Assembly: GCA_016208465.1 (NCBI GenBank)
Contig: JACQXZ010000064.1
Coordinates: 1-55,217, forward strand
Direction: 5' to 3'
DNA length: 55,217 nucleotides
Origin: Actinomycetota bacterium
Lineage (GTDB): Bacteria > Actinomycetota > Aquicultoria > JACQXZ01
Shown one piece after another: positions 1-38,011 of the stretch (position 1 is its first letter; each line of letters begins with the position of its first letter). The position numbers and the translations under genes are program-made. The notes under the pieces are model-generated. The model did no database searches, was not told the DNA's origin, and saw nothing but the letters and a program-made list of their open reading frames with translations.

Positions 1-138
1 AAGATATATCACTTGACTTATACTCTATCCTCGTATTGAGGAAGTGTTTCTGAAGAGCCGTGTGAGGGAAATCCTCACGCACGGTTCTGTGAGGGGCATT
101 AAGTAACCAAATGAGGTTATAAAGGATGTCTACTCGAC
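1..138 (+). mobile_element. 3' end of a group II intron (domain V 55-87, domain VI 91-135, 3' splice site after 138); the rest lies upstream of the window
   Basis: 55-87 gagccgtgtgagggaaatcctcacgcacggttc fits the domain V consensus (AGC triad, 2-nt bulge on the 3' strand, purine-rich loop). A 3-nt linker follows. 91-135 pairs as gaggggcat/atgtct(A)ctc with bulged A132, six nt before an AC terminus, as in Ll.LtrB. Confidence 0.75.
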
Positions 139-28868: not shown

Positions 28869-29918
28869 ATGGAACGAGATAAAGCTTTAGATATTACCTT
28901 GTCTCAGATTGAAAAACAATTCGGCAAAGGCGCGATAATGAAATTAGGGGAGGATTCTCATCTTGATATAGAGGTTATTCCCACAGGAGCGCTTTCGCTT
29001 GATTTGGCTCTTGGCGTGGGAGGTGTTCCAAGAGGCAGGATAGTAGAAATATTTGGTCCCGAATCTTCAGGTAAAACGACACTTGCTTTACAGATTATCT
29101 CAGAAGCCCAGAAAAAAGGAGGTATTGCCGCTTTTATTGATGCCGAACATGCACTGGATCCTGTTTATGCCCGCAAGCTTGGAGTAGATATGGACAATCT
29201 TCTTGTTTCTCAGCCCGACACGGGAGAGCAGGCACTAGAAATTGCGGATATGCTTATAAGAAGCGGAGCGATTGACGCGTTAATTATTGATTCAGTTGCC
29301 GCGTTGGTTCCTAAGGCTGAAATCGAAGGAGAGATAGGAGATTCCTTTATAGGACTTCAGGCCCGTTTAATGTCTCAGGCGCTTAGAAAGTTAGCTGGTT
29401 CGCTTAACAAGTCAAACACAACGGCTATATTTATCAATCAGTTGAGAGAAAAAATTGGAGTAATGTTTGGCAATCCTGAGACAACTCCCGGAGGCAGAGC
29501 GCTAAAATTTTATGCTTCTGTAAGGTTAGACATAAGAAGAATTGATTCATTGAAGCAGGGAGCGGACATTGTCGGTAACAGAGTAAGAGTAAAAGTTGCC
29601 AAAAATAAAGTAGCTTCACCTTTTAAGCTAGCTGAATTTGATATAGTTTACGGCGAAGGAATTTCCAAAGAAGGATGTATTTTAGATATTGGGTCTGAAC
29701 AGGGAGTTATTTTAAAAAGCGGAGCCTGGTATACCTATGGCGGTGAGAGATTAGGTCAAGGCAGAGAAAATGCCAAACAATTTTTAAAAGAAAATCCTGA
29801 AATGACTAAAAAATTAGAAAAAGAAATAAAAATTAAAGTTGGTTTCACGAAAGAAGAAATTAAATCCGTTAAAGAAACCAAAGATTTAAAAGAAAAACAA
29901 AAAGTCCCAGTTGCTTAA
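28869..29918 (+). CDS. recA: recombinase RecA
   Basis: Walker [10 protein letters not shown]; full-length RecA similarity. Confidence 0.97.
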
Positions 29919-30051
29919 AATAAAGAAAATGAAACGGCTTATATCTTAATAAAAAATAACTGATAGAGGAAATAATGTTATGACACAAGAATAAATTAAC
30001 ATGTTGAGTATAAAAATAGAAACGTAATTTAAGATATGGTGTGGTGTTTTT

Positions 30052-31008
30052 ATGTTTACAAGAAATACAATAAATATATCAAATAGTTTTGATCAAAAAG
30101 AACATGTTGTTGTATATCATGGTAGTTGTCTTGAGTTGCTCAAACAAATACCTGATAGAAAAATCCAACTTATAGCAACTTCTCCTCCTTATAACATCGG
30201 GAAGGAATATGAAAGGAAATTGAAATTACAAGAATATATTAATCAGCAGGTTGCAGTGATAGAGGAATGTGTGCGTGTTCTCTCTGATCAAGGAAGTATC
30301 TGTTGGCAAGTAGGAAACTATGTTGAGGATGGAAAAATAATTCCTCTTGATACAATTCTTTATCCAATATTTAATGATCTTGGATTAGTAATGCGGAATA
30401 GGATTATCTGGCATTTTGAACACGGCTTGCATTGTTCAAAGAGGTTTTCTGGGCGCTATGAAGCAATTATTTGGTTTACCCGAAACACAAAAGATTATAT
30501 TTTTAATTTAGACCCCATAAGAATTCCGCAGAAATATCCTGCAAAGAAATATTTTAAAGGTCCCAAGGCGGGAGAATACTCATGTAATCCGCTTGGGAAA
30601 AATCCTGGAGACGTATGGGACATTCCAAATGTTAAAAGTAACCATGTAGAAAAAACCGATCATCCCTGTCAATTTCCAGTTGAGCTTATTGAGCGAATGG
30701 TTCTTTCAATGAGCAATGAAGGAGATTGGGTGTTCGATCCATTTTTGGGTACGGGCACAACTATTGTCGCGGCTATTAAAAACAAGCGCCGAGGTATAGG
30801 GTCCGAGGTTGTTGAAAAATATGTAGCATTAGCTAATGAACGAATTAAAAAAGCGATTAAAGGAACACTTAAAACACGGCCAATGAATAAACCTAAATAT
30901 GACCCTAAAGATTATAATAATAAACAAGCTATTCCTCCTTGGGAAACCAATAGTGATAAATTGAGACAGGTTGAATTATTTGCTCAAACCAGGAGTTCCT
31001 TGAAGTGA
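30052..31008 (+). CDS. beta-class DNA methyltransferase, probably N4-cytosine (type II R-M)
   Basis: Motif IV SPPY (ATSPPYNIGKEY) lies N-terminal to motif I FDPFLGTGTT. Its stop overlaps the start of the downstream endonuclease gene. Confidence 0.85.
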   Translation: MFTRNTINISNSFDQKEHVVVYHGSCLELLKQIPDRKIQLIATSPPYNIGKEYERKLKLQEYINQQVAVIEECVRVLSDQGSICWQVGNYVEDGKIIPLDTILYPIFNDLGLVMRNRIIWHFEHGLHCSKRFSGRYEAIIWFTRNTKDYIFNLDPIRIPQKYPAKKYFKGPKAGEYSCNPLGKNPGDVWDIPNVKSNHVEKTDHPCQFPVELIERMVLSMSNEGDWVFDPFLGTGTTIVAAIKNKRRGIGSEVVEKYVALANERIKKAIKGTLKTRPMNKPKYDPKDYNNKQAIPPWETNSDKLRQVELFAQTRSSLK

Positions 31009-31616
31009 AAATAGTCGAAATATATTCTCACTTAAATGGGCTTGACTTCTTATTAGTACATAAGAAGTCATTATGGAAAGAAATTCAAGCTGTGATTAAA
31101 GAAATCGATGCCAGAAAGTGTAAAACAAAAGTCTCAAAAGAAAAGACAATGAAGGGTCGTTTGCTTTATAGTCCTATTGAAATGAATAAGGATTTTAAAA
31201 ATCTTCTCAAAATAAAAAATTGGGAAGAGAGTCGAGTAAGTTATTGGGTTACAAAAGATGAAAAACTAATTCGTAAAACATTAACAATGGCTCCCGATGA
31301 ACAAAAGAAAGAAATTGAATCTGAGGGATTTGCTCCTATCTTTAGCTATAACCAAACGGACCATATAAAAGACAGAGTTGCCATTGAAGTGCAATTTGGA
31401 AAGTATTCTTTTGTGGCATACGATTTATTTGTGAAACATCTAGCTTTTTATGTTGGAGACAAAATTGATGTTGGTATAGAAATATTACCAATGAAATCAC
31501 TTCAAAATCAAATGAGTTCGGGTGTGGCTTATTACGAAGGTGAATTATATAACGTAATAAGACAGGGGCGGGGTGTTCCGGCTGTTCCTCTTGTGATAAT
31601 TGGAATTGAACCGTAA
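31005..31616 (+). CDS. BglII/BstYI-family type II restriction endonuclease
   Basis: TDHIKDRVAIEVQFGKYSF parallels the BglII catalytic D...E-V-Q-F segment. The N-terminal LWKEIQ also matches BglII from memory. GTG 31005 overlaps the TGA of the methylase. Confidence 0.7.
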   Translation: MKIVEIYSHLNGLDFLLVHKKSLWKEIQAVIKEIDARKCKTKVSKEKTMKGRLLYSPIEMNKDFKNLLKIKNWEESRVSYWVTKDEKLIRKTLTMAPDEQKKEIESEGFAPIFSYNQTDHIKDRVAIEVQFGKYSFVAYDLFVKHLAFYVGDKIDVGIEILPMKSLQNQMSSGVAYYEGELYNVIRQGRGVPAVPLVIIGIEP

Positions 31617-31810
31617 AAATAAATTGCCTAACGATCCTACTCTTACCTACTGTTTCCGTGGTTTTTCACGTTGTCTGTATCAGTAGGTATGTTTAATTGT
31701 TAGATTACAATGGTTGTACTGGTTCAAGGCAGATATTGTTTTATATTGTTAATATTTTAATTGTCAATATAAACTAAACATTGTTGTGTGTCTAAGGTGG
31801 TAATAATTCA

Positions 31811-32791
31811 ATGACAAAGGTCCCCATTTCTGCACTAAAGGAGGTTCCTTTTCTTAGATCACTATCACCCCTTGATTCTCCTCCCACAATTGCCACTCTC
31901 CAGTTTTATGTTGAGGAGAAGTGGCACTGTTGGCTCCCCCACAGAGAGGGGCTAGTTAAGATGCAGATGTGGCCGTACGATGCCAATTACTTCGGCGACA
32001 AGTCAGAGCTCAAGACAGACCAGCACTTTCCTCTTCTCCATATGATTGTCCAGCATACTCTCGACATAGGAATGTATAGACACTTCCAGTCCTTGGTAAA
32101 CGACTATCAGAATCTAAGCGCGTCACTTACGAAGATGCGTCTATTTTATGCCAATCGTGACTCGAAAAACTACGGAATTTGTCGTTGTGTTCAGTCAGAA
32201 ATCGAATACTTGGCAGTCTTGTGCCGAAGTATATTCGACTTACTGCAGGTGTTGGTGCGCTTGCACATCGAGCGCATACGCATCCTAGATGGTCCACAAC
32301 CTAAAAAGCTCCCTGACAGTTTCCGTGAGGTCATCTACAAGAAAAAAGCGAATCTGTCTGTCGACGAAATTGTTTTACGATACGGTCTACCAATCCCTAT
32401 CGCAAATTGGTATGTCCAGCAATGCGATTTCTTCATGCGACTTCGCGCGATTCGGGATCGAATAGTCCACAGGGGCTCGACAGTTGAAGTGATTTTCTCA
32501 ACTGATCGCGGATTCGCTGTTTCGCGCGACGACGATCCGTTCGACGGACTATACGATTGGCCGGCAGAGTGTGAACTTCCGAATTCACTCGTTCCGATTC
32601 GGCCCGCGCTCGCAACGATGGTAAAAAACACTATGGATGCCTGCAACACGTTTGCCACAATGCTCTCAGCTACAATCGCGGTGCCGGACGAGTTGGCTCC
32701 AAATTTGAAGCTGTTCACGCGCGGCACGAACGACCAGGAGTTTCAGACTCTTGACGCGGCAATTATACACTCGCTGTGGGACGACACATAA
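31811..32791 (+). CDS. hypothetical protein with a HEPN-type R-x4-H motif (RAIRDRIVH); compositionally foreign
   Basis: 326-aa ORF. Hand counts of 60-nt lines give about 48-58 percent G+C, against about 20-35 percent in flanking genes. Predicted helical; no family recognised. Confidence 0.55.
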   Translation: MTKVPISALKEVPFLRSLSPLDSPPTIATLQFYVEEKWHCWLPHREGLVKMQMWPYDANYFGDKSELKTDQHFPLLHMIVQHTLDIGMYRHFQSLVNDYQNLSASLTKMRLFYANRDSKNYGICRCVQSEIEYLAVLCRSIFDLLQVLVRLHIERIRILDGPQPKKLPDSFREVIYKKKANLSVDEIVLRYGLPIPIANWYVQQCDFFMRLRAIRDRIVHRGSTVEVIFSTDRGFAVSRDDDPFDGLYDWPAECELPNSLVPIRPALATMVKNTMDACNTFATMLSATIAVPDELAPNLKLFTRGTNDQEFQTLDAAIIHSLWDDT

Positions 32792-32958
32792 CAGGCATTT
32801 GAGGTGACACATTAATGTGCGCCACTTAAACTTCATAGAATTAGCAATGAGAGGAGGAGGAACGCGTTGTCCTATACGCAGTTTAGTTTCTTCTATCTCA
32901 TTGCAGGTACATTTAAAAAAATACCGAAAATAACAAAAAACACTGGAGGCATTTTGCT

Positions 32959-33693
32959 ATGAAGAAAATTGGTATTTTGGTGTTGGTTGGGATTACTTTA
33001 ATGGAATTGTATGTTACGCCTATCGAAGCGCGCGCGGGCGCAGCTTCTGAATCCGAATTTATTGAACTTTATAAACAGGCGCATCTCCAAAACAATGTAG
33101 AGATGTTTATGCGGTTAGTTTATATGAATGGTGTTACCGAAGAGATTGCTGAGAAGATTAAAAAAATGGCCTCAGAAGATTTTAAAGATAAATTAGCCAG
33201 CGCAAGAATTACTCCAAAACGGGAGAATCAAATAACCGAATATATACGGGATGGAATTATATATCGCTCAAATTTGAAAGTCATTGGTAATCTTGAAATT
33301 AAATATGAAGGGAATTCAAGAATATCATATCTTCCGATAGGCATTAAAAATGGTGTTTATTATTTTCCAGCGACGGTTCCTGCCGGAAAATCTAAAACAT
33401 TGATCAAGGGAACACCTATGCTGGATGTAATCAGTTATGGTTATCAGGTTAGTGTTTTTATAAATGGCACCAGAATTTATTCTGGTAAGGATGCTAGTTA
33501 TTCAGGCATTATACCTAAAGGGATTAAAAAAGGTTTAAATCGTTTAAACGTAAAATATCAACAAATTTCTAATCCTCGCCTTAAGAAACTTGAAGTCAAA
33601 GTGCGTTTGATGGAGAAAAACAAAAATAAAATCCTTCTTAACTGGAGGGCGCCAAACCCATCAGGAGCAGTTAGTCTCAATTTTACATTTTAG
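32959..33693 (+). CDS. secreted protein of unknown function
   Basis: N-terminal signal peptide (MKKIGILVLVGITLMELYVTPIEARA); no recognisable domain. Confidence 0.6.
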   Translation: MKKIGILVLVGITLMELYVTPIEARAGAASESEFIELYKQAHLQNNVEMFMRLVYMNGVTEEIAEKIKKMASEDFKDKLASARITPKRENQITEYIRDGIIYRSNLKVIGNLEIKYEGNSRISYLPIGIKNGVYYFPATVPAGKSKTLIKGTPMLDVISYGYQVSVFINGTRIYSGKDASYSGIIPKGIKKGLNRLNVKYQQISNPRLKKLEVKVRLMEKNKNKILLNWRAPNPSGAVSLNFTF

Positions 33694-33703
33694 TCTCGCG
33701 ATA

Positions 33704-34462
33704 TTGTTTTTCTTAGGGGAGTATCTTGTGAATATTAAAAACGTCTCATCAAGTCTTTTTCGATGGCAGCCATCCCGCGAGACCCTTGTTCCAGTTGTCA
33801 GCGGTTTTGTTGTTTTTGCCTTATCAGCCGCCATGATACCTGCTCATGAAATGCCTTGGGCAGGTATTTTACTTAGAGATATAGGAATGATTTTTACAGC
33901 GGGCATAGCGTTTCCTCTTTATTATCTTCTGCTTTCCGGTAGTAATTTCACTGAGTTTGGTCTAACGCTTAAAAAATGGTACATTGTTTTTCCGATTAAT
34001 TTTGTACTCGGAATACTTTTGCTTCTCTCTTTCGTTTCAGAAAATTCCCCCATAGGTTTCCGGTTTGACTTACTTACTTTGGCGAAAGTGATTTATATTT
34101 TACTGGCAGGTATTTTTGAAGTGATTTTCTTTTATAGTTTCCAGAGAACTTTATTTGAACGGTCCTTTGGAATTGTTCCCGGAATTGTCCTTGCTTCTCT
34201 TTTTTATTCTTTGCATCATATTGGTTTTCAGCCAGAGTTTGGTAAACTCTTCTTTGTAGGACTAATGTATGCCAGTGTTTTTCGGCTTGGGAACAGCGCG
34301 TTTTTAATTTATCCGTTTTTCTGGACGGTTGGCGCGGCTTATGATGTCTTAATTCAATCGCGGGAGGTATCGCCAATCTTATATCCTGAAATACGCAGTT
34401 TGTATTTGATTGTTCTTATTCTAGCGGTAGTAATTTGGGCAGGGAGGAGCGCGAAATTATAA
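33704..34462 (+). CDS. CPBP (CAAX-type) intramembrane glutamic endopeptidase family protein
   Basis: Multi-TM protein with FEVIFFYSFQR and SLFYSLHH motif regions. An alternative GTG start at 33728 follows ggggag. Confidence 0.65.
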   Translation: MFFLGEYLVNIKNVSSSLFRWQPSRETLVPVVSGFVVFALSAAMIPAHEMPWAGILLRDIGMIFTAGIAFPLYYLLLSGSNFTEFGLTLKKWYIVFPINFVLGILLLLSFVSENSPIGFRFDLLTLAKVIYILLAGIFEVIFFYSFQRTLFERSFGIVPGIVLASLFYSLHHIGFQPEFGKLFFVGLMYASVFRLGNSAFLIYPFFWTVGAAYDVLIQSREVSPILYPEIRSLYLIVLILAVVIWAGRSAKL

Positions 34463-34550
34463 AATGTATTGACTCTCCCTTAAGGGAAGACCTTATTCTT
34501 ATAACTGAAGATTGATTTTTGTTAGACTATATAAGGAGGAACGCGGAATT

Positions 34551-35162
34551 ATGAAAAAAATAGATTTCAAAAAAGAATTAAAACACCTGTACAATGCTTC
34601 CATGAAAGAGGTTGTAATTGTTGATGTTTCAAAGATGAATTTTCTTATGATTGATGGCATCGGCGATCCAAACACATCTCAGGACTTTAAGAATGCTGTA
34701 GAAGCATTATATAATTTATCCTATGCTCTCAAGTTTATGGTTAAAAAAGGAAAAGAAGCGGTTGATTATGGCGTTATGCCTCTTGAGGGTCTTTGGTGGA
34801 TTGATGATATGACCAAATTCAGCGTAGAAAACAAAGATGTCTGGAAATGGACAGTAATGATTATGCAGCCGGAATATGTAACAAAAGATTTGTTCGATGA
34901 AGCTTTTGAAGAGGTAAAGGAAAAGAAAAACCCTCCAGCGCTTTCAAAGGTAAGATTTGAAAATTTTCATGAAGGGTTGTCGGCTCAGATAATGCATATT
35001 GGTCCATATTCTACCGAAGGTCCAACTATTGAGGGGATTCATAATTTTGTAAAGGAGAAGGGATATAGTCTGACTGGAAAACATCATGAAATATATTTAA
35101 GCGATCCTCGCAAAGCCGCGCCGGAAAAATGGAAAACTATTATAAGACAACCCATAAAATAA
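34551..35162 (+). CDS. GyrI-like small-molecule-binding domain protein
   Basis: KELKHLYN...FLMIDGIGDPNTS...MPLEGLWW...LSAQIMHIGPY pattern. ATG 34551 follows aaggagg. Confidence 0.75.
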   Translation: MKKIDFKKELKHLYNASMKEVVIVDVSKMNFLMIDGIGDPNTSQDFKNAVEALYNLSYALKFMVKKGKEAVDYGVMPLEGLWWIDDMTKFSVENKDVWKWTVMIMQPEYVTKDLFDEAFEEVKEKKNPPALSKVRFENFHEGLSAQIMHIGPYSTEGPTIEGIHNFVKEKGYSLTGKHHEIYLSDPRKAAPEKWKTIIRQPIK

Positions 35163-35259
35163 AAATCAAAATGCAAAAATCAAAAGTCAAAATTACAAAT
35201 CAAAATTTAAATATAAAGAGTTTTGCCTGTAAGAAACAGAGAGGGAATTAAAAACAGTA

Positions 35260-36144
35260 ATGATTACCGAAATTCAAGCGAAATCAATTTTAAATAAACA
35301 CAAGAAACGGGATGACTGGTTTTTAGATGACTATTCGGTAAATCCCTATCAGCGCTGTTCCTTCAATTGCATTTATTGTTATACGCGTGGGAGTAAATAT
35401 GGAACTCACATGGCAAAGACTTTATCGGTGAAGATAAATGCTCCGGAACTTTTAGAAAAACAACTTTTAGGAAGAGCGAAAAAAGGAGAATATGGAATTA
35501 TATTTATTGCTTCACAAGAAGCATATCTGCCGATTGAAGAGAAATATAAAATAACAAGAAAATTACTTGAAATAATTTTAAAATACAAATTTCCTGTTGA
35601 GGTAGTAACAAAATCAACTCTAGCATTAAGAGATTTAGATTTATTAAGAGAAATTGATAAAAATGCCATTTTGCCTGATGATCTAAAGCCAAAATTAAAA
35701 CACGGCACAATTATTTCCTTCTCCGTTTCAACTTTGGATGAGAAGCTAGCAAAGATTCTTGAACCCGGAGCGCCTTCCCCAATAGAAAGACTTAAGACAA
35801 TGCAAAAGTTTAAAGAAGAAGGATTCTTTGTCGGGGTGAATTTTATTCCTGTTTTGCCGTTTTTGTCTGATTCAGAAGAACAATTAGATGAGATGATAAG
35901 GCAGGCTAAAAGCTATGGAGCCGATTTTGTTTTTGTTGGAGGATTAACTTTGTTTGGCACCGGTCCGACAGATTCCAAAACACTTTATTACAAATTTCTG
36001 GAAAAATATTACCCTGAACTTGTGTCAAAGTATAAAAGCCTGTATAGAATTTTCTTTGCGCCATCAAGGGATTACCAAAGGCAACTTGAAGAAAAATCGA
36101 AATTGTTGTGCGAGAAACATAGAATCAAGAATGGGATTGTTTAA
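35260..36144 (+). CDS. radical SAM protein, SplB/DNA-repair-photolyase-like (COG1533 type)
   Basis: CSFNCIYCY CxxxCxxC motif near the N-terminus; 294 aa. Confidence 0.75.
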   Translation: MITEIQAKSILNKHKKRDDWFLDDYSVNPYQRCSFNCIYCYTRGSKYGTHMAKTLSVKINAPELLEKQLLGRAKKGEYGIIFIASQEAYLPIEEKYKITRKLLEIILKYKFPVEVVTKSTLALRDLDLLREIDKNAILPDDLKPKLKHGTIISFSVSTLDEKLAKILEPGAPSPIERLKTMQKFKEEGFFVGVNFIPVLPFLSDSEEQLDEMIRQAKSYGADFVFVGGLTLFGTGPTDSKTLYYKFLEKYYPELVSKYKSLYRIFFAPSRDYQRQLEEKSKLLCEKHRIKNGIV

Positions 36145-36199
36145 GAAATGTCTTCGATGAGTTTAAGGAAGCAGAATAAACAGATGTTTGCCTAAAGCA

Positions 36200-36236
36200 T
36201 AGGACAGGCGAGACGCCTATCCTACTGATACTTTTT
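36200..36236 (+). terminator. REP-like hairpin with T-tract downstream of the radical SAM gene
   Basis: taggacaggcg-aga-cgcctatccta, then ctgatacttttt. Confidence 0.4.
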
Positions 36237-36412
36237 GTTGACATAAGACTGCTTAAATTATAAGATAAACTAGAGGCAAAGTATTTTAGTATATAAGCGA
36301 GAAATTCGTTTATTTTGATATATTTATTGGTTTGTAAAGATAGATTTATTGTGTTCAATAGTTCTATTATTAATAAACGCTGAAGTTAATTTTTAATTAG
36401 TTAAAGTATTTT

Positions 36413-36442
36413 GCCGAGCATTTGCTCGGCTTTTGTATTTTT
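36413..36442 (+). terminator. intrinsic terminator about 40 nt upstream of rny
   Basis: gccgagc-attt-gctcggc followed by ttttgtattttt. Confidence 0.65.
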
Positions 36443-36481
36443 AGGTGAATTATATACAATGAAAGGAGGAGTAGAAGTTAG

Positions 36482-38011
36482 ATGTACATACTGTATGCGA
36501 TTGTTGGTATTATTGTTGGCGTTTCTGTAGGTTATTTTCTTAGAAAGTATGTTGGTGAAGCAAAAATTACCTCTGCTGAGTCAGCGGCTCATAAAATTGT
36601 AGAAGATGCTCAAAAAGAAGCTGAAACACGCACAAGAGAAGCAATTATTGGAATAAAAGACGAGATTCATATTTTAAGAATGGATGCGGAAAAGGAAATC
36701 CGCGAAAGAAGAACTGAACTTCAGAGACTCGAAAAAAGAGTAATCCAAAAAGAAGAAATGCTGGACAAAAAAATTGATCAGATAGAAAAAAGAGATCAGT
36801 TTCTTAAGAGCAAAGAGAAGGAATTAGTTGATAAAGAGGGAGAGCTTGAAACAATTACAAAACAGCAGAAGGAAGCGCTTGAAAGAATCTCCGGACTTAG
36901 CGTTGAAGAAGCAAGAAGTATTTTTCTTAAACGAGTTGAAGATGAATCAAAGCGGGAAGCCGCGGTTTTAATTAAAGCAATAGAAGATAAAGCGCGTGAA
37001 GAGGGCGAAAAAAGAGCAAAAAATATTGTTACGCTTGCCATTCAAAGATGTTCCGCAGATCACGTCGCGGAGACAGCAGTTTCTGTAATTCCACTTCCCA
37101 ATGATGAAATGAAAGGCAGAATTATTGGCAGGGAAGGAAGAAATATAAGAATATTTGAAAATCTTACAGGCATCAATCTTATAATTGATGATACGCCGGA
37201 AGCTGTTATTCTATCTAGTTTTGATCCATTTAGACGAGAAGTTGCCCGTTTAACTCTGGAAAAATTAATTACAGATGGCAGGATTCATCCTGCGAGAATC
37301 GAAGAAATGTACGAGAAGTCAAAAGAAGAAGTTGAAGCTGAAATAAGGGAAGCTGGGGAACAGGCAATTTTTCAGACAGATGTTCATGGATTAAATCCTG
37401 AATTAGTCCGTGTTTTAGGAAGACTTAAGTTTAGAACCAGTTATGGTCAAAATGTTTTAAAGCATTCATTAGAGGTGGCTCATTTAGCAGGAGTGATGGC
37501 TTCAGAGCTTGGGGTGGATGTAAAAATTGCTAAAAGAGCCGGACTCTTGCACGATATTGGCAAGGCAGTTGATCATGAAATTGAAGGATCGCACGCTCAG
37601 ATTGGAGCCGATCTTGCTAGACGGTTAAGGGAATCAGTTCCAGTTTGCCATGCGATTGCGGCGCATCATGAAGAGATTCAGCCACAAACGATAGAGGCGG
37701 TTCTGGTGCAGGCCGCTGATGCTGTTTCAGCCGCCCGTCCGGGCGCAAGAAGAGAAACGCTTGAGAGCTATATTAAGCGATTGGAAAAATTGGAAGCAAT
37801 AGCTGAGTCCTATAAAGGTGTTGAAAGGTCATTTGCTATGCAGGCTGGACGAGAAATAAGAATTATGGTTAAACCGGATGAAATTAACGACATAGAATCA
37901 TCCCAGCTTGCTAAAGAAATTGCAAAAAATATTGAAGAAGAACTGGATTATCCCGGTCAGATTAAGGTAATTGTAATCAGAGAAAACCGTGCTATAGAGT
38001 ACGCTAAGTAA
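36482..38011 (+). CDS. rny: ribonuclease Y
   Basis: N-terminal TM helix, coiled coil, KH ([12 protein letters not shown]), HD domain (LLHDIGKA). Confidence 0.95.

What the first reader, a model, noticed from the sequence alone, without database searches (positions are those of the whole stretch)
31811..32791. Compositionally foreign 326-aa ORF with a HEPN-type RxxxxH motif next to the R-M system: candidate new defence effector
This ORF stands out sharply in base composition. Hand counts of 60-nt lines give 48 and 58 percent G+C, against about 20-35 percent in neighbouring genes. It even spawns long antisense ORFs. This points to recent horizontal acquisition from a higher-G+C donor. It lies directly downstream of, and co-oriented with, the R-M pair. 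The protein matches no family I recognise. It does contain …QQCDFFMRLRAIRDRIVHRGSTV…, an R-[DN]-x-x-x-H motif in a predicted helical context, which is the hallmark of HEPN RNase domains (AbiD/F, AbiU2, Cas13, RnlA-type toxins). No MNT antitoxin partner is adjacent. A solitary HEPN-like protein in a defence neighbourhood would fit an abortive-infection-type effector of an undescribed family.
Basis: partly seen in the sequence, partly recalled or inferred. Interest (0 to 1): 0.7.

Follow-up and report, generated by a model that had tools for sequence, protein, structure and literature searches.

The report
Unclassified solo HEPN-like RNase gene
A horizontally acquired 326-residue gene beside a restriction-modification cassette belongs to an unannotated, widely scattered protein family that looks like a stand-alone HEPN-type RNA-cutting toxin, probably used against phages; this is a new family of a familiar kind, not a new kind of system.

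Summary
ORF 31811-32791 (+, 326 aa) is the strongest compositional outlier of 50 genes in the window (GC 48.7% vs 36.3%; GC3 55% vs 29.6%, z=5.1). It matches no model in Pfam, NCBIfam, PADLOC, PHROGs or PDB. It is not an orphan: an exhaustive HMMER search finds 643 cluster representatives. Across 129 diverse members, the only invariant columns are R215 and H220 of the R-D-x3-H motif. A confident AlphaFold model (pLDDT 87) shows four long helices with the motif at the end of helix 3, an insert between helices 2 and 3, and conserved acidic residues in helix 2, which is the published HEPN layout. Formal homology tests stay below threshold but all point to HEPN: five HEPN-clan Pfam families at E 0.002-0.05, HepT/YutE Foldseek hits at TM 0.36-0.46, and hhalign z about 3.5 against a HEPN-TPR family. 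No partner gene is conserved. Members sit beside GmrSD-like, HNH, ubiquitin-like and Septu-like genes, beside integrases, and in prophage accessory slots. The adjacent R-M pair is a separate mobile cassette: 0 of 80 related R-M loci carry this gene. Best reading: a self-contained HEPN RNase acting as an abortive-infection-type effector, a new member of a known kind. Function is untested.

The parts
31811..32791 (+). Full ORF, 326 aa plus stop: member of an unclassified solo HEPN-like family
   Evidence: ORF list. Homologues cover residues 1-326. 643 family representatives. No hit in any curated library.
31794..31800 (+). Shine-Dalgarno-like AAGGTGG, 10 nt before the ATG; supports the 326-aa start over the 276-aa public gene call
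   Evidence: Sequence read directly. N-terminal residues P13, F32, W38 and W41 are invariant in close homologues.
31740..31773 (.). AT-rich 14+14 nt inverted repeat (TTTATATTGTTAAT / ATTGTCAATATAAA) 38 nt upstream of the start; possible operator. Function unknown.
   Evidence: the repeat finder pair I8, 86% complementary, 6 nt between arms. Not tested further.
31811..32020 (+). Family-specific N-terminal module (residues 1-70), beta-rich (strands 31-62), with conserved W38, W41, P55, Y60 and D70. Candidate sensor or oligomerisation module.
   Evidence: AF2 secondary structure. Conservation. No family match.
32066..32674 (+). HEPN-like helical core: H1 residues 86-114, H2 123-153 (CRSxFDxLQ block; near-invariant E130, E132, R139, S140, D143), insert 154-194, H3 195-218, beta insert 221-263, H4 264-288
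   Evidence: AF2 full-length model pLDDT 86.8 and core-only model pLDDT 88.1. Layout matches the criteria in PMC3710099. Sub-threshold HEPN hits.
32453..32470 (+). Predicted catalytic motif R215-D216-R-I-V-H220 (Rx4H) at the C-terminal end of H3
   Evidence: R215 and H220 are the only invariant columns in the 129-sequence alignment; D216 is at least 90% conserved. Codons read directly.
32335..32727 (-). 130-aa antisense ORF (and a nested 60-aa one at 32433-32615): by-products of the GC-rich composition, not genes
   Evidence: ORF list. They lie wholly inside the conserved sense ORF; no independent evidence of coding.
30016..31632 (+). Context only, not part of the unit: type II R-M cassette (M 30052-31008, R 31005-31616), acquired independently
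   Evidence: Pfam/PADLOC. More than 551 metagenome relatives of the REase at 75-90% identity. DNA homology to the window is confined to 30016-31632, and 0 of 80 loci carry the HEPN-like gene.

Best explanation
The ORF encodes a self-contained, horizontally mobile endoribonuclease of the HEPN superfamily, from a family that no curated database yet recognises.

Proposed mechanism; every step is inferred, by analogy with characterised HEPN enzymes:
1. The four-helix core dimerises, so that two R215-D216-x3-H220 motifs form a composite active site. Helix-2 acidic residues E130, E132 and D143 assist.
2. Cleavage is metal-independent and leaves 2',3'-cyclic phosphate ends.
3. The enzyme is held inactive until infection or another stress is sensed. 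The sensor would be the family-specific parts: the N-terminal beta-rich module, the H2-H3 insert and the H3-H4 beta insert.
4. Once active, it cuts cellular and/or phage RNA (tRNA, rRNA or mRNA) and stops translation. This is an abortive-infection-type defence.

In this genome it is a solo cargo gene. It landed, separately from the neighbouring R-M cassette, in a variable slot between recA and rny, coming from a higher-GC donor lineage.

Shown here: gene intact, family real, R/H invariance, HEPN-like predicted topology, no conserved partner, patchy distribution with foreign composition, frequent defence/MGE/prophage contexts. Inferred: RNase chemistry, dimerisation, trigger, defence phenotype.
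For: Family and motif:
- 16 close and 643 total relatives.
- In 129 diverse members the only invariant columns are R215 and H220. D216, a polar residue after R as in HEPN, is at least 90% conserved (criterion from PMC3710099).

Structure:
- AF2 pLDDT 86.8, pTM 0.87. Four long helices, Rx4H at the end of the third helix and running into the loop, insert between H2 and H3, near-invariant acidic residues in H2.
- HEPN proteins from three lineages recur among Foldseek's best small-domain hits: HepT 7bxo (prob 0.33, TMt 0.46), YutE 1ylm, HEPN toxin 7ae6/7ae8.
- HepT is also reported as the closest structural homologue of the insertion-bearing ApeA HEPN domain (bioRxiv 10.64898/2026.01.26.701840).

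Sequence profiles:
- Sub-threshold hits to five HEPN-clan Pfam families. In the scan of members, 8 of 48 member-family hits were to four of them: LA2681 (E=0.002), Cthe_2314, MAE_28990 and Apea.
- The fifth, RiboL-PSP, appeared in a subclade consensus scan.
- The family consensus's only Pfam hit is HEPN_Cthe2314, spanning H2 to the motif.
- hhalign against a HEPN-TPR family aligns RDxIVH on RSxYVH with score 23.6. The shuffle null has mean 16.3, sd 2.1, max 21.8.
- UniRef names one member 'Apea-like HEPN'.

Solo status: no neighbour is conserved across 27 non-redundant loci.

Context:
- GmrSD_N adjacent (L006, L027), HNH_5 abutting (L012), E1/E2 ubiquitin-like cassettes (L019, L032), PtuA-like ATPase (L037).
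- Pycsar cyclase and PDC candidate systems among neighbours.
- Integrase, transposase or recombinase adjacent (L002, L003, L030).
- Two real prophages carry it in accessory slots.

HGT: window gene is +12.7 GC points against its flanks; in other hosts the median is -7.6 points, down to -22. At least seven phyla.
Against: - No comparison with any established HEPN domain reaches significance. Pfam hits are 14-17 bits against gathering cut-offs of about 27. Foldseek E is at least 0.6 and TM is below 0.5. hhalign probability is 1.4%.
- The helix-2 acidic residues are not in the canonical Ex3[KR] arrangement.
- PADLOC has no hit, including to its ApeA and Abi models.
- There is no hit in 50,697 GenBank phage genomes.
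- Many loci are flanked only by housekeeping genes such as H+-PPase, MreB, GlyS and a Na/H exchanger, so the defence-island association is partial and was not tested against a matched control.
- Two copies are pseudogenes (L025, L034).
- A constitutively expressed solo toxin with no antitoxin needs an autoinhibition mechanism, for which there is no direct evidence.
- No experimental data exist for any member.
Confidence: 0.55

Rival explanations
1. The protein is a toxin or addiction module of mobile elements, not a phage-defence effector. It is an HEPN-like RNase that stabilises plasmids, integrative elements and prophages by post-segregational killing. Its antidote would be an unrecognised small protein or antisense RNA, or regulation would be purely transcriptional.
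For: - It sits directly downstream of a tyrosine integrase in a TA-rich, IS-rich region (L002), next to transposases and ArdC (L003/L028), and next to a large serine recombinase (L030).
- It occurs on rhizobial plasmids and in prophages.
- A fragment is fused to an integrase fragment (P0013).
- In L001 a DUF6932 + HTH pair follows it.
Against: - No conserved neighbouring ORF of at least 70 aa exists in 27 loci.
- Many copies sit between housekeeping genes with no MGE marker nearby.
- The window has no credible small partner ORF and no known RNA family nearby.
- Defence and addiction roles are not mutually exclusive.
Confidence: 0.17
2. The protein is not an RNase. It would be a helical protein of a different or novel fold in which the invariant Arg and His bind a ligand or nucleic acid, or catalyse different chemistry; for example a nucleotide sensor, a DNA-binding accessory factor or a phosphotransfer enzyme. 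The HEPN resemblance would be convergent.
For: - All homology and fold tests are below threshold.
- Generic helical bundles (LXR, translin, designed bundles, GPCRs) score similarly to HEPN proteins in Foldseek.
- Several other residues are nearly invariant (Y60, D70, D98, K108, Y201, W250, P297), suggesting a larger functional surface than a minimal HEPN site.
- HEPN domains without catalysis are known (PMC3710099).
Against: - The only invariant residues are exactly the R and H of an Rx4H motif, with a polar D after R, at the end of the third of four long helices.
- The weak hits are heavily enriched for HEPN-clan families and structures and not for any other enzyme class.
- hhalign co-aligns the motif with that of a HEPN-TPR family above the shuffle null.
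Confidence: 0.15
3. The ORF is a functional third component of the adjacent type II R-M system: an R-M-linked HEPN 'second line' that fires when restriction fails, as PrrC does with EcoprrI.
For: - It is co-oriented 194 nt downstream of the REase, with no strong terminator or promoter between them; only a weak 5-bp stem at 31657-31670.
- HEPN genes are often embedded in R-M operons (PMC3710099).
- Other members abut DNA-targeting genes: GmrSD_N and HNH_5.
Against: - 0 of 80 loci carrying the closest relatives of this R-M pair contain a family member.
- DNA homology to those loci stops at 31632, before the ORF.
- The R-M genes have host-like GC (34.8%) and the ORF does not (48.7%).
- No R-M gene recurs next to other family members.
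Confidence: 0.05

Closest known systems
ApeA (single-gene HEPN anti-phage system; Pfam HEPN_Apea PF18739)
   Same: Both are single-protein systems with no partner gene. Both have a diverged HEPN core that keeps four helices, with the Rx4H-type site in H3 and an insertion between H3 and H4. In both, the closest structural relative is the minimal HepT toxin. Both carry an N-terminal region with no recognisable homology. One family member is auto-labelled 'Apea-like HEPN' by UniRef.
   Different: ApeA is about 560-600 aa with N-terminal, Mid and HEPN domains and forms decameric or dodecameric rings. This protein is 326 aa with a 70-residue beta-rich N-terminal module and no Mid domain. There is no PADLOC hit at all. 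HEPN_Apea was hit by only 1 of 129 members, at E=0.056. Oligomeric state, trigger and RNA target are unknown here.
Lactococcal-type solo Abi HEPN proteins and R-M-associated HEPN families (AbiD/F, AbiU2, AbiV, AbiJ; Anantharaman et al. 2013)
   Same: These are stand-alone or R-M-neighbouring HEPN proteins with an R-[NDH]-x3-4-H motif, carried on mobile DNA and proposed or shown to act by abortive infection (PMC3710099). AbiV (9bj6) appears among the weak Foldseek hits.
   Different: No sequence-profile match to Abi_2, AbiU2, AbiV or AbiJ models in Pfam or PADLOC. The N-terminal module and beta insert differ. AbiV needs a second component, whereas this family has no conserved partner.
LA2681-like, Cthe_2314-like and RiboL-PSP HEPN families, and the P4-hotspot 'HEPN-TPR' protein (Rousset et al. 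2022)
   Same: These give the best sub-threshold profile hits (E 0.002-0.05), and the located ones run from helix 2 to the motif. The block order is the same: conserved helix (…ESLxQ… against …CRSxFDxLQ…), a long insert, then …RSxYVH… against …RDxIVH…, then a further helix. hhalign co-aligns the motifs with z about 3.5.
   Different: All scores are below the families' gathering thresholds. There are no TPR or L-PSP fusions. hhalign probability is only 1.4%, and helix 2 is not aligned in register.
HepT/MntA (HEPN/MNT) type VII toxin-antitoxin
   Same: HepT is the best structural match among solved structures (7bxo TMt 0.46; 7ae8 TMt 0.38). The predicted chemistry is the same.
   Different: HepT is a minimal domain of about 130 aa that is always paired with an MNT antitoxin, which adenylylates it. 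No MNT or other conserved partner is present here, and this protein is 2.5 times larger with extra modules.

Membership tests
HEPN superfamily (Anantharaman et al. 2013; Pfam clan HEPN) | Conserved Rx4-6H motif | tested here: met
   R215 and H220 (Rx4H) are the only invariant columns among 129 members down to 23% identity. They are also invariant in the 15 close homologues.
HEPN superfamily (Anantharaman et al. 2013; Pfam clan HEPN) | Polar residue (mostly N, D or H) immediately after the conserved R | tested here: met
   D216 is conserved in at least 90% of members, and N occurs in some. Criterion quoted from PMC3710099.
HEPN superfamily (Anantharaman et al. 2013; Pfam clan HEPN) | [quoted passage not shown] | tested here: met
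   AF2 models (pLDDT 87-88) give helices 86-114, 123-153, 195-218 and 264-288, an insert at 154-194, and the motif at 215-220. Criterion. This is met at the level of secondary-structure order only; 3D packing could not be inspected with these tools.
HEPN superfamily (Anantharaman et al. 2013; Pfam clan HEPN) | Second conserved acidic residue in helix 2, typically in an Ex3[KR] motif | tested here: inconclusive
   E130, E132 and D143 are at least 90% conserved and lie in predicted helix 2. None is followed by K/R at +4; R139 is at +7 from E132.
HEPN superfamily (Anantharaman et al. 2013; Pfam clan HEPN) | Significant profile or structural similarity to an established HEPN domain | tested here: inconclusive
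   Pfam: five HEPN-clan families hit, all below threshold (best E 0.002; 14-17 bits against a GA of about 27-28). Foldseek: HepT, YutE and HEPN toxin at prob up to 0.33 and TMt 0.36-0.46. PDB sequence searches: nothing. hhalign against HEPN-TPR: P=0.036, z about 3.5 against shuffles.
HEPN superfamily (Anantharaman et al. 2013; Pfam clan HEPN) | Metal-independent endoRNase activity; dimer with composite active site | not testable with these tools
   Needs biochemistry, or at least multimer modelling. Only monomer prediction was available.
ApeA (Gao et al. 2020 system; PF18739; PADLOC ApeA) | Match to the ApeA/HEPN_Apea models | tested here: not met
   PADLOC: 0 families at E<=1. HEPN_Apea was hit by 1 of 129 members at E=0.056. 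None of 103 relatives carries a precomputed Pfam domain. The only support is one automatic UniRef name.
ApeA (Gao et al. 2020 system; PF18739; PADLOC ApeA) | Architecture: N-terminal + Mid + C-terminal HEPN, about 560-600 aa | tested here: not met
   This protein is 326 aa: a 70-residue beta-rich N-terminal module followed by the helical core. ApeA architecture.
HEPN/MNT (HepT-MntA) toxin-antitoxin | Adjacent MNT nucleotidyltransferase gene | tested here: not met
   None in the window. No conserved neighbour of any kind in 27 loci. No NTP_transf family among the recurrent neighbours.
DUF4238 single-gene defence (Rst_DUF4238, Rousset et al. 2022) | Sequence-profile similarity to the validated DUF4238 protein | tested here: not met
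   hhalign of the family profile against the cloned E. coli TA007 protein gives probability 0.2% over 16 columns. The 'DUF4238' UniRef label on one member is not corroborated.
R-M-embedded HEPN (PrrC-like linkage to a specific R-M system) | Recurrent co-occurrence with the same R-M genes | tested here: not met
   0 of 80 loci with this R-M cassette carry a family member, and homology ends at 31632.

The most novel reading that the evidence does not exclude
The family is a new, compact, single-protein sensor-effector. Its family-specific N-terminal beta module and H3-H4 insert would form a ligand pocket against the HEPN core, as in ApeA, which is switched on by deoxydinucleotides released during DNA degradation. 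Its repeated placement beside DNA-cutting systems (type II R-M here; GmrSD-like and HNH genes elsewhere) would then reflect a functional logic: the RNase reads out nucleic-acid breakdown products made by neighbouring nucleases or by the phage, and acts as a portable back-up alarm that plugs into any DNA-targeting defence.
Probability: 0.08. Interest if true: 0.7.

Novelty: new member of a known kind. Interest (0 to 1): 0.38.

Why it matters
If the prediction holds, this adds a moderately large protein family (about 640 clusters at 50% identity, spread over at least seven bacterial phyla, plasmids and prophages) to the catalogue of stand-alone HEPN RNase effectors. The family is currently labelled 'hypothetical' almost everywhere and is invisible to Pfam, NCBIfam, PADLOC and PHROGs. 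At 326 residues with no partner gene, it would be one of the more compact self-contained HEPN defence proteins. That makes it a tractable model for how solo HEPN toxins are kept silent and then triggered. It would also give defence-annotation pipelines a new profile. It does not challenge current concepts: solo and R-M-neighbouring HEPN proteins have been predicted since 2013, and ApeA shows how such proteins can work.

Tried and rejected
Searches that found nothing for the ORF:
- Direct library searches of the ORF (Pfam, NCBIfam, PADLOC, PHROGs, PDB sequences) gave no match.
- The family profile against PDB sequences found only a designed coiled coil.
- Foldseek of the full-length and core-only models against PDB and BFVD gave nothing at E<0.6.
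- A profile search of the 5.8-billion-cluster database at E<=10, meant to surface marginal hits with HEPN Pfam labels, returned only 20 family members.
- A search seeded with the 'Apea-like' Methylobacterium member found 103 relatives, none with a precomputed Pfam domain.

Comparisons that were negative or uninformative:
- hhalign against the single DUF4238 and HEPN-TPR sequences was uninformative or negative.
- I had recalled DUF4238 as being ApeA. The literature showed they are different systems, and the DUF4238 link was rejected.

Context tests:
- An empty-site search using the downstream 244-aa gene as anchor found no relatives in metagenomes.
- A search for insertion scars, att-like repeats or tRNAs around the ORF found nothing convincing.
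- The promoter/terminator scan was not informative.
- The search for a conserved partner or antitoxin found none.
- Obligate linkage to the adjacent R-M was rejected.
- Assembly chimera was considered and rejected: both flanks are host-like in one contig, and the ORF is intact with all conserved residues.
Full report

Yes. The ORF is at 31811-32791 on the + strand and is 326 aa long.
- Sliding windows give 46-54% GC across it, against 31-38% around it.
- Among 50 greedily called genes in the window it is the top outlier. GC is 48.7% against a mean of 36.3% (z=3.8). GC3 is 55.0% against 29.6% (z=5.1).
- The antisense ORFs of 130 and 60 aa exist and are by-products of the composition.
- The upstream genes are a genuine type II R-M pair: N6_N4_Mtase at E=5e-56, and a BglII-family REase matching PADLOC REase_II at E=9e-98.
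- The motif R215-D-R-I-V-H220 is encoded at 32453-32470.
- The public gene call for this ORF is 276 aa (P0001). An AAGGTGG 10 nt before the first ATG, and conservation of residues 1-50 in homologues, show that the 326-aa reading is right.

**2. Is it a real gene family?**

No model in Pfam, NCBIfam, PADLOC or PHROGs matches the protein, and neither does any PDB sequence.
- The word-indexed search found only 16 relatives among 5.8 billion clusters.
- The exhaustive HMMER profile search found 643 representatives at 50% identity, 326 of them with E<1e-30 and nearly all 300-360 aa long.
- A second seeded search found 103 more relatives. None carries a Pfam domain, and essentially all are named 'hypothetical protein'.
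- No paper cites the accessions I could find.

So this is a coherent, moderately large family that is uncurated.

**3. Motif and fold**

In the 15 closest sequences, 42 columns are invariant. In an alignment of 129 diverse members, down to 23% identity to the query, only two columns remain invariant: R215 and H220. D216 and 12 other positions are at least 90% conserved, including E130, E132, R139, S140 and D143 in one helix.

AlphaFold2 gives a confident model (pLDDT 86.8, pTM 0.87) with these elements:
- a beta-rich N-terminal module (strands 31-62);
- four long helices (86-114, 123-153, 195-218, 264-288);
- a 40-residue insert between the second and third helices;
- a beta insert between the third and fourth helices.

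A core-only model of residues 72-296 reproduces this layout (pLDDT 88.1).

The founding HEPN paper states the criteria (PMC3710099):
- the residue after R is usually N, D or H;
- a conserved acidic residue, when present, is in helix 2;
- inserts between helices 2 and 3 are frequent.

All of these fit. The one exception is that the acidic residues are not in the typical Ex3[KR] spacing.

**4. Formal homology tests**

All of these are below threshold, but they are strikingly one-directional.

| Test | Result |
|---|---|
| Pfam scan of all 129 members at E<=1 | 48 member-family hits; 8 fall on four HEPN-clan families: LA2681 x3 (best E=0.002), Cthe_2314 x3, MAE_28990, Apea |
| Family consensus against Pfam | Exactly one hit at E<=10: HEPN_Cthe2314 (E=0.052), from the CRSxFDxLQ helix to the RDxxxH motif |
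| Subclade consensus sequences against Pfam | Add HEPN_RiboL-PSP (0.017), Cthe_2314 (0.011) and LA2681 (0.019) over the same span |
| Foldseek, both models | Nothing significant. HEPN proteins from three lineages recur: HepT 7bxo (prob 0.33, TMt 0.46), B. subtilis YutE 1ylm, Aphanizomenon HEPN toxin 7ae6/7ae8, and AbiV. No other enzyme fold appears. |
| hhalign against a 'HEPN-TPR' family profile | RDxIVH aligns on RSxYVH; score 23.6, P=0.036, probability 1.4% |
| Null for that hhalign score | Reversed template 18.7; 60 block shuffles mean 16.3, sd 2.1, max 21.8 |

The HEPN-TPR profile was built from a protein in Rousset et al.'s supplement plus ten plasmid homologues.

The ApeA preprint reports that ApeA's diverged, insertion-bearing HEPN domain also has HepT (5YEP/7AE8) as its closest structural homologue. 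One family member is auto-named 'Apea-like HEPN domain-containing protein' by UniRef. Another is auto-named 'DUF4238', but hhalign against the validated DUF4238 defence protein is negative (0.2%).

I conclude that HEPN membership is probable, at roughly 75%, but not proven.

**5. Genomic context**

Across 27 non-redundant loci, no neighbouring gene is conserved. The family therefore travels as a solo gene.

Defence-type neighbours within three genes:
- GmrSD_N: directly upstream in L006/L007, and two tandem copies downstream in L027, together with an HTH-Peptidase_M78 regulator upstream.
- An HNH_5 protein abutting the 3' end in L012.
- E1/E2/multiubiquitin cassettes in two Bradyrhizobium replicons (L019, L032).
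- A PtuA-like AAA_21 ATPase in L037.
- A Pycsar cyclase and several PADLOC candidate systems, in loci I could not assign.
- Source calls for this list: 16, 19, 36, 46, 47, 49, 50.

Mobile-element neighbours:
- A tyrosine integrase 10 bp upstream, in a TA-rich and IS-rich region (L002).
- Transposases and ArdC (L003/L028).
- A serine recombinase (L030).
- Two rhizobial plasmids.
- A gene fragment fused to an integrase fragment.
- Source calls for this list: 14, 15, 34, 36, 37, 49, 60.

Two IMG/VR contigs are genuine prophages. One carries the gene between the primase and the large terminase. The other carries it just beyond the tail-fibre/baseplate module. These are typical accessory-gene slots.

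Against this, many copies sit between housekeeping genes, and I could not run a matched control. The association is therefore suggestive and not quantified.

**6. Horizontal transfer**

- The family occurs in Planctomycetota, Alpha-, Beta- and Gammaproteobacteria, Chlorobium, Acidobacteria, Cyanobacteria, Brocadiales and Desulfovibrio.
- In almost every host the gene's GC differs from its flanks. The median is -7.6 points, with extremes of -22. The window is the only strong positive case, at +12.7.
- The window's closest relatives (55-64% identity) are on contigs of 50-62% GC, including a 3.3-Mb Planctomycetaceae contig.

**7. Relation to the R-M pair**

- The REase has more than 551 metagenomic relatives at 75-90% identity.
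- In 80 fetched loci, none contains a family member.
- DNA similarity to the window is confined to 30016-31632, for example 82% identity in L040.
- The R-M genes also have host-like GC (34.8%).

The R-M pair and the ORF are therefore two independent cassettes that landed in the same variable slot between recA (28869-29918) and rny (36482-38011). Their adjacency marks a small defence/cargo islet, not an operonic system.

**8. Mechanism, rivals, novelty**

The best-supported reading is a self-contained HEPN endoribonuclease acting as an abortive-infection-type effector, with family-specific modules as sensor or autoinhibitor. The chemistry, dimerisation and trigger are inferred from characterised HEPN proteins (PMC3710099; ApeA preprint).

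Rivals:
- an MGE addiction toxin with a cryptic antidote;
- a non-RNase helical protein using R/H for another purpose;
- a true third component of the R-M, largely refuted.

The finding is a new family-level member of a well-known kind. A specialist would find it useful but not surprising. Interest is 0.38. The most novel reading still open is a compact ApeA-like ligand-gated RNase that reads out DNA-degradation products from neighbouring nucleases. I give that about 8% probability.

Noticed in passing
window 30016-31632: The type II R-M pair (N6/N4 methyltransferase + BglII-family endonuclease) is itself a compact mobile cassette. More than 551 metagenome contigs encode the REase at 75-90% amino-acid identity. 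DNA homology to the window (82% in L040) starts and stops within tens of bases of the two genes.
   Followed up: partly
window 53-138 (+): Rfam Group II catalytic intron (RF00029) match, 58.4 bits against a gathering score of 40, at the very start of the window. It is the only Rfam hit in 55 kb, and the window has no tRNA genes.
   Followed up: no
window 29919-36481: The recA-rny interval holds a run of cargo-like genes: the R-M pair, the HEPN-like ORF, a 244-aa protein with a signal-peptide-like N-terminus and no family match or metagenome relatives (32959-33693), a weak Rce1/CAAX-protease-like membrane protein, a GyrI-like protein and a 294-aa protein with a CxxxCxxC motif that I did not scan (35260-36144). 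It looks like a variable islet between two conserved housekeeping genes.
   Followed up: partly
window 31740-31773: AT-rich 14+14 nt inverted repeat (TTTATATTGTTAAT ... ATTGTCAATATAAA) in the host-like intergenic region 38 nt upstream of the ORF. It could be a regulator binding site. The GC-rich foreign segment begins only at about the start codon.
   Followed up: no
window 31811-31960 / P0001: The public collection's gene call for this ORF is 276 aa, starting at the internal Met51. The conserved N-terminus and an SD site show the true product is 326 aa. Several relatives are likewise stored as N-terminally truncated calls (for example P0176, 290 aa).
   Followed up: yes
L025 7902-8912; L034 8004-8976: The family copies in Asticcacaulis sp. 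YBE204 and Candidatus Kuenenia hertensis are split into two ORFs by a stop or frameshift, so they are probably pseudogenes. This is consistent with turnover of a costly cargo gene.
   Followed up: partly
L009 1622-2665 (P0013): A 347-aa called protein is a chimera: residues 1-155 match residues 109-263 of the family at 65% identity, and the rest carries a weak tyrosine-integrase match. It is a rearrangement remnant. L002 has an intact integrase 10 bp upstream of an intact family gene.
   Followed up: partly
L001 11092-12092: In the Planctomycetaceae genome the family gene is followed by an overlapping DUF6932 + HTH_31 gene pair and preceded by a Uma2-family gene. A metallo-beta-lactamase with an Anti-Pycsar Apyc1 Pfam hit lies 4.5 kb downstream. 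I did not determine whether DUF6932 is a nucleotidyltransferase-like partner.
   Followed up: no
L019 5007-7914; L032 4152-5840: Two Bradyrhizobium replicons carry the family gene immediately after a multiubiquitin / E2 / ThiF-E1 / DUF6527 / DUF2188 cassette, which gives strong PADLOC 'E1-E2' hits. In L019, an S8 peptidase + AAA ATPase pair lies upstream. This is a dense plasmid defence island.
   Followed up: partly
L120-L129 (plasmid loci): Homologues of the Rousset et al. 'HEPN-TPR' protein on plasmids are all annotated 'hypothetical protein'. They sit beside GIY-YIG nuclease, UvrD-like helicase, TrlF-like ATPase or thermonuclease genes. This looks like another under-annotated HEPN family in defence-like contexts.
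   Followed up: no
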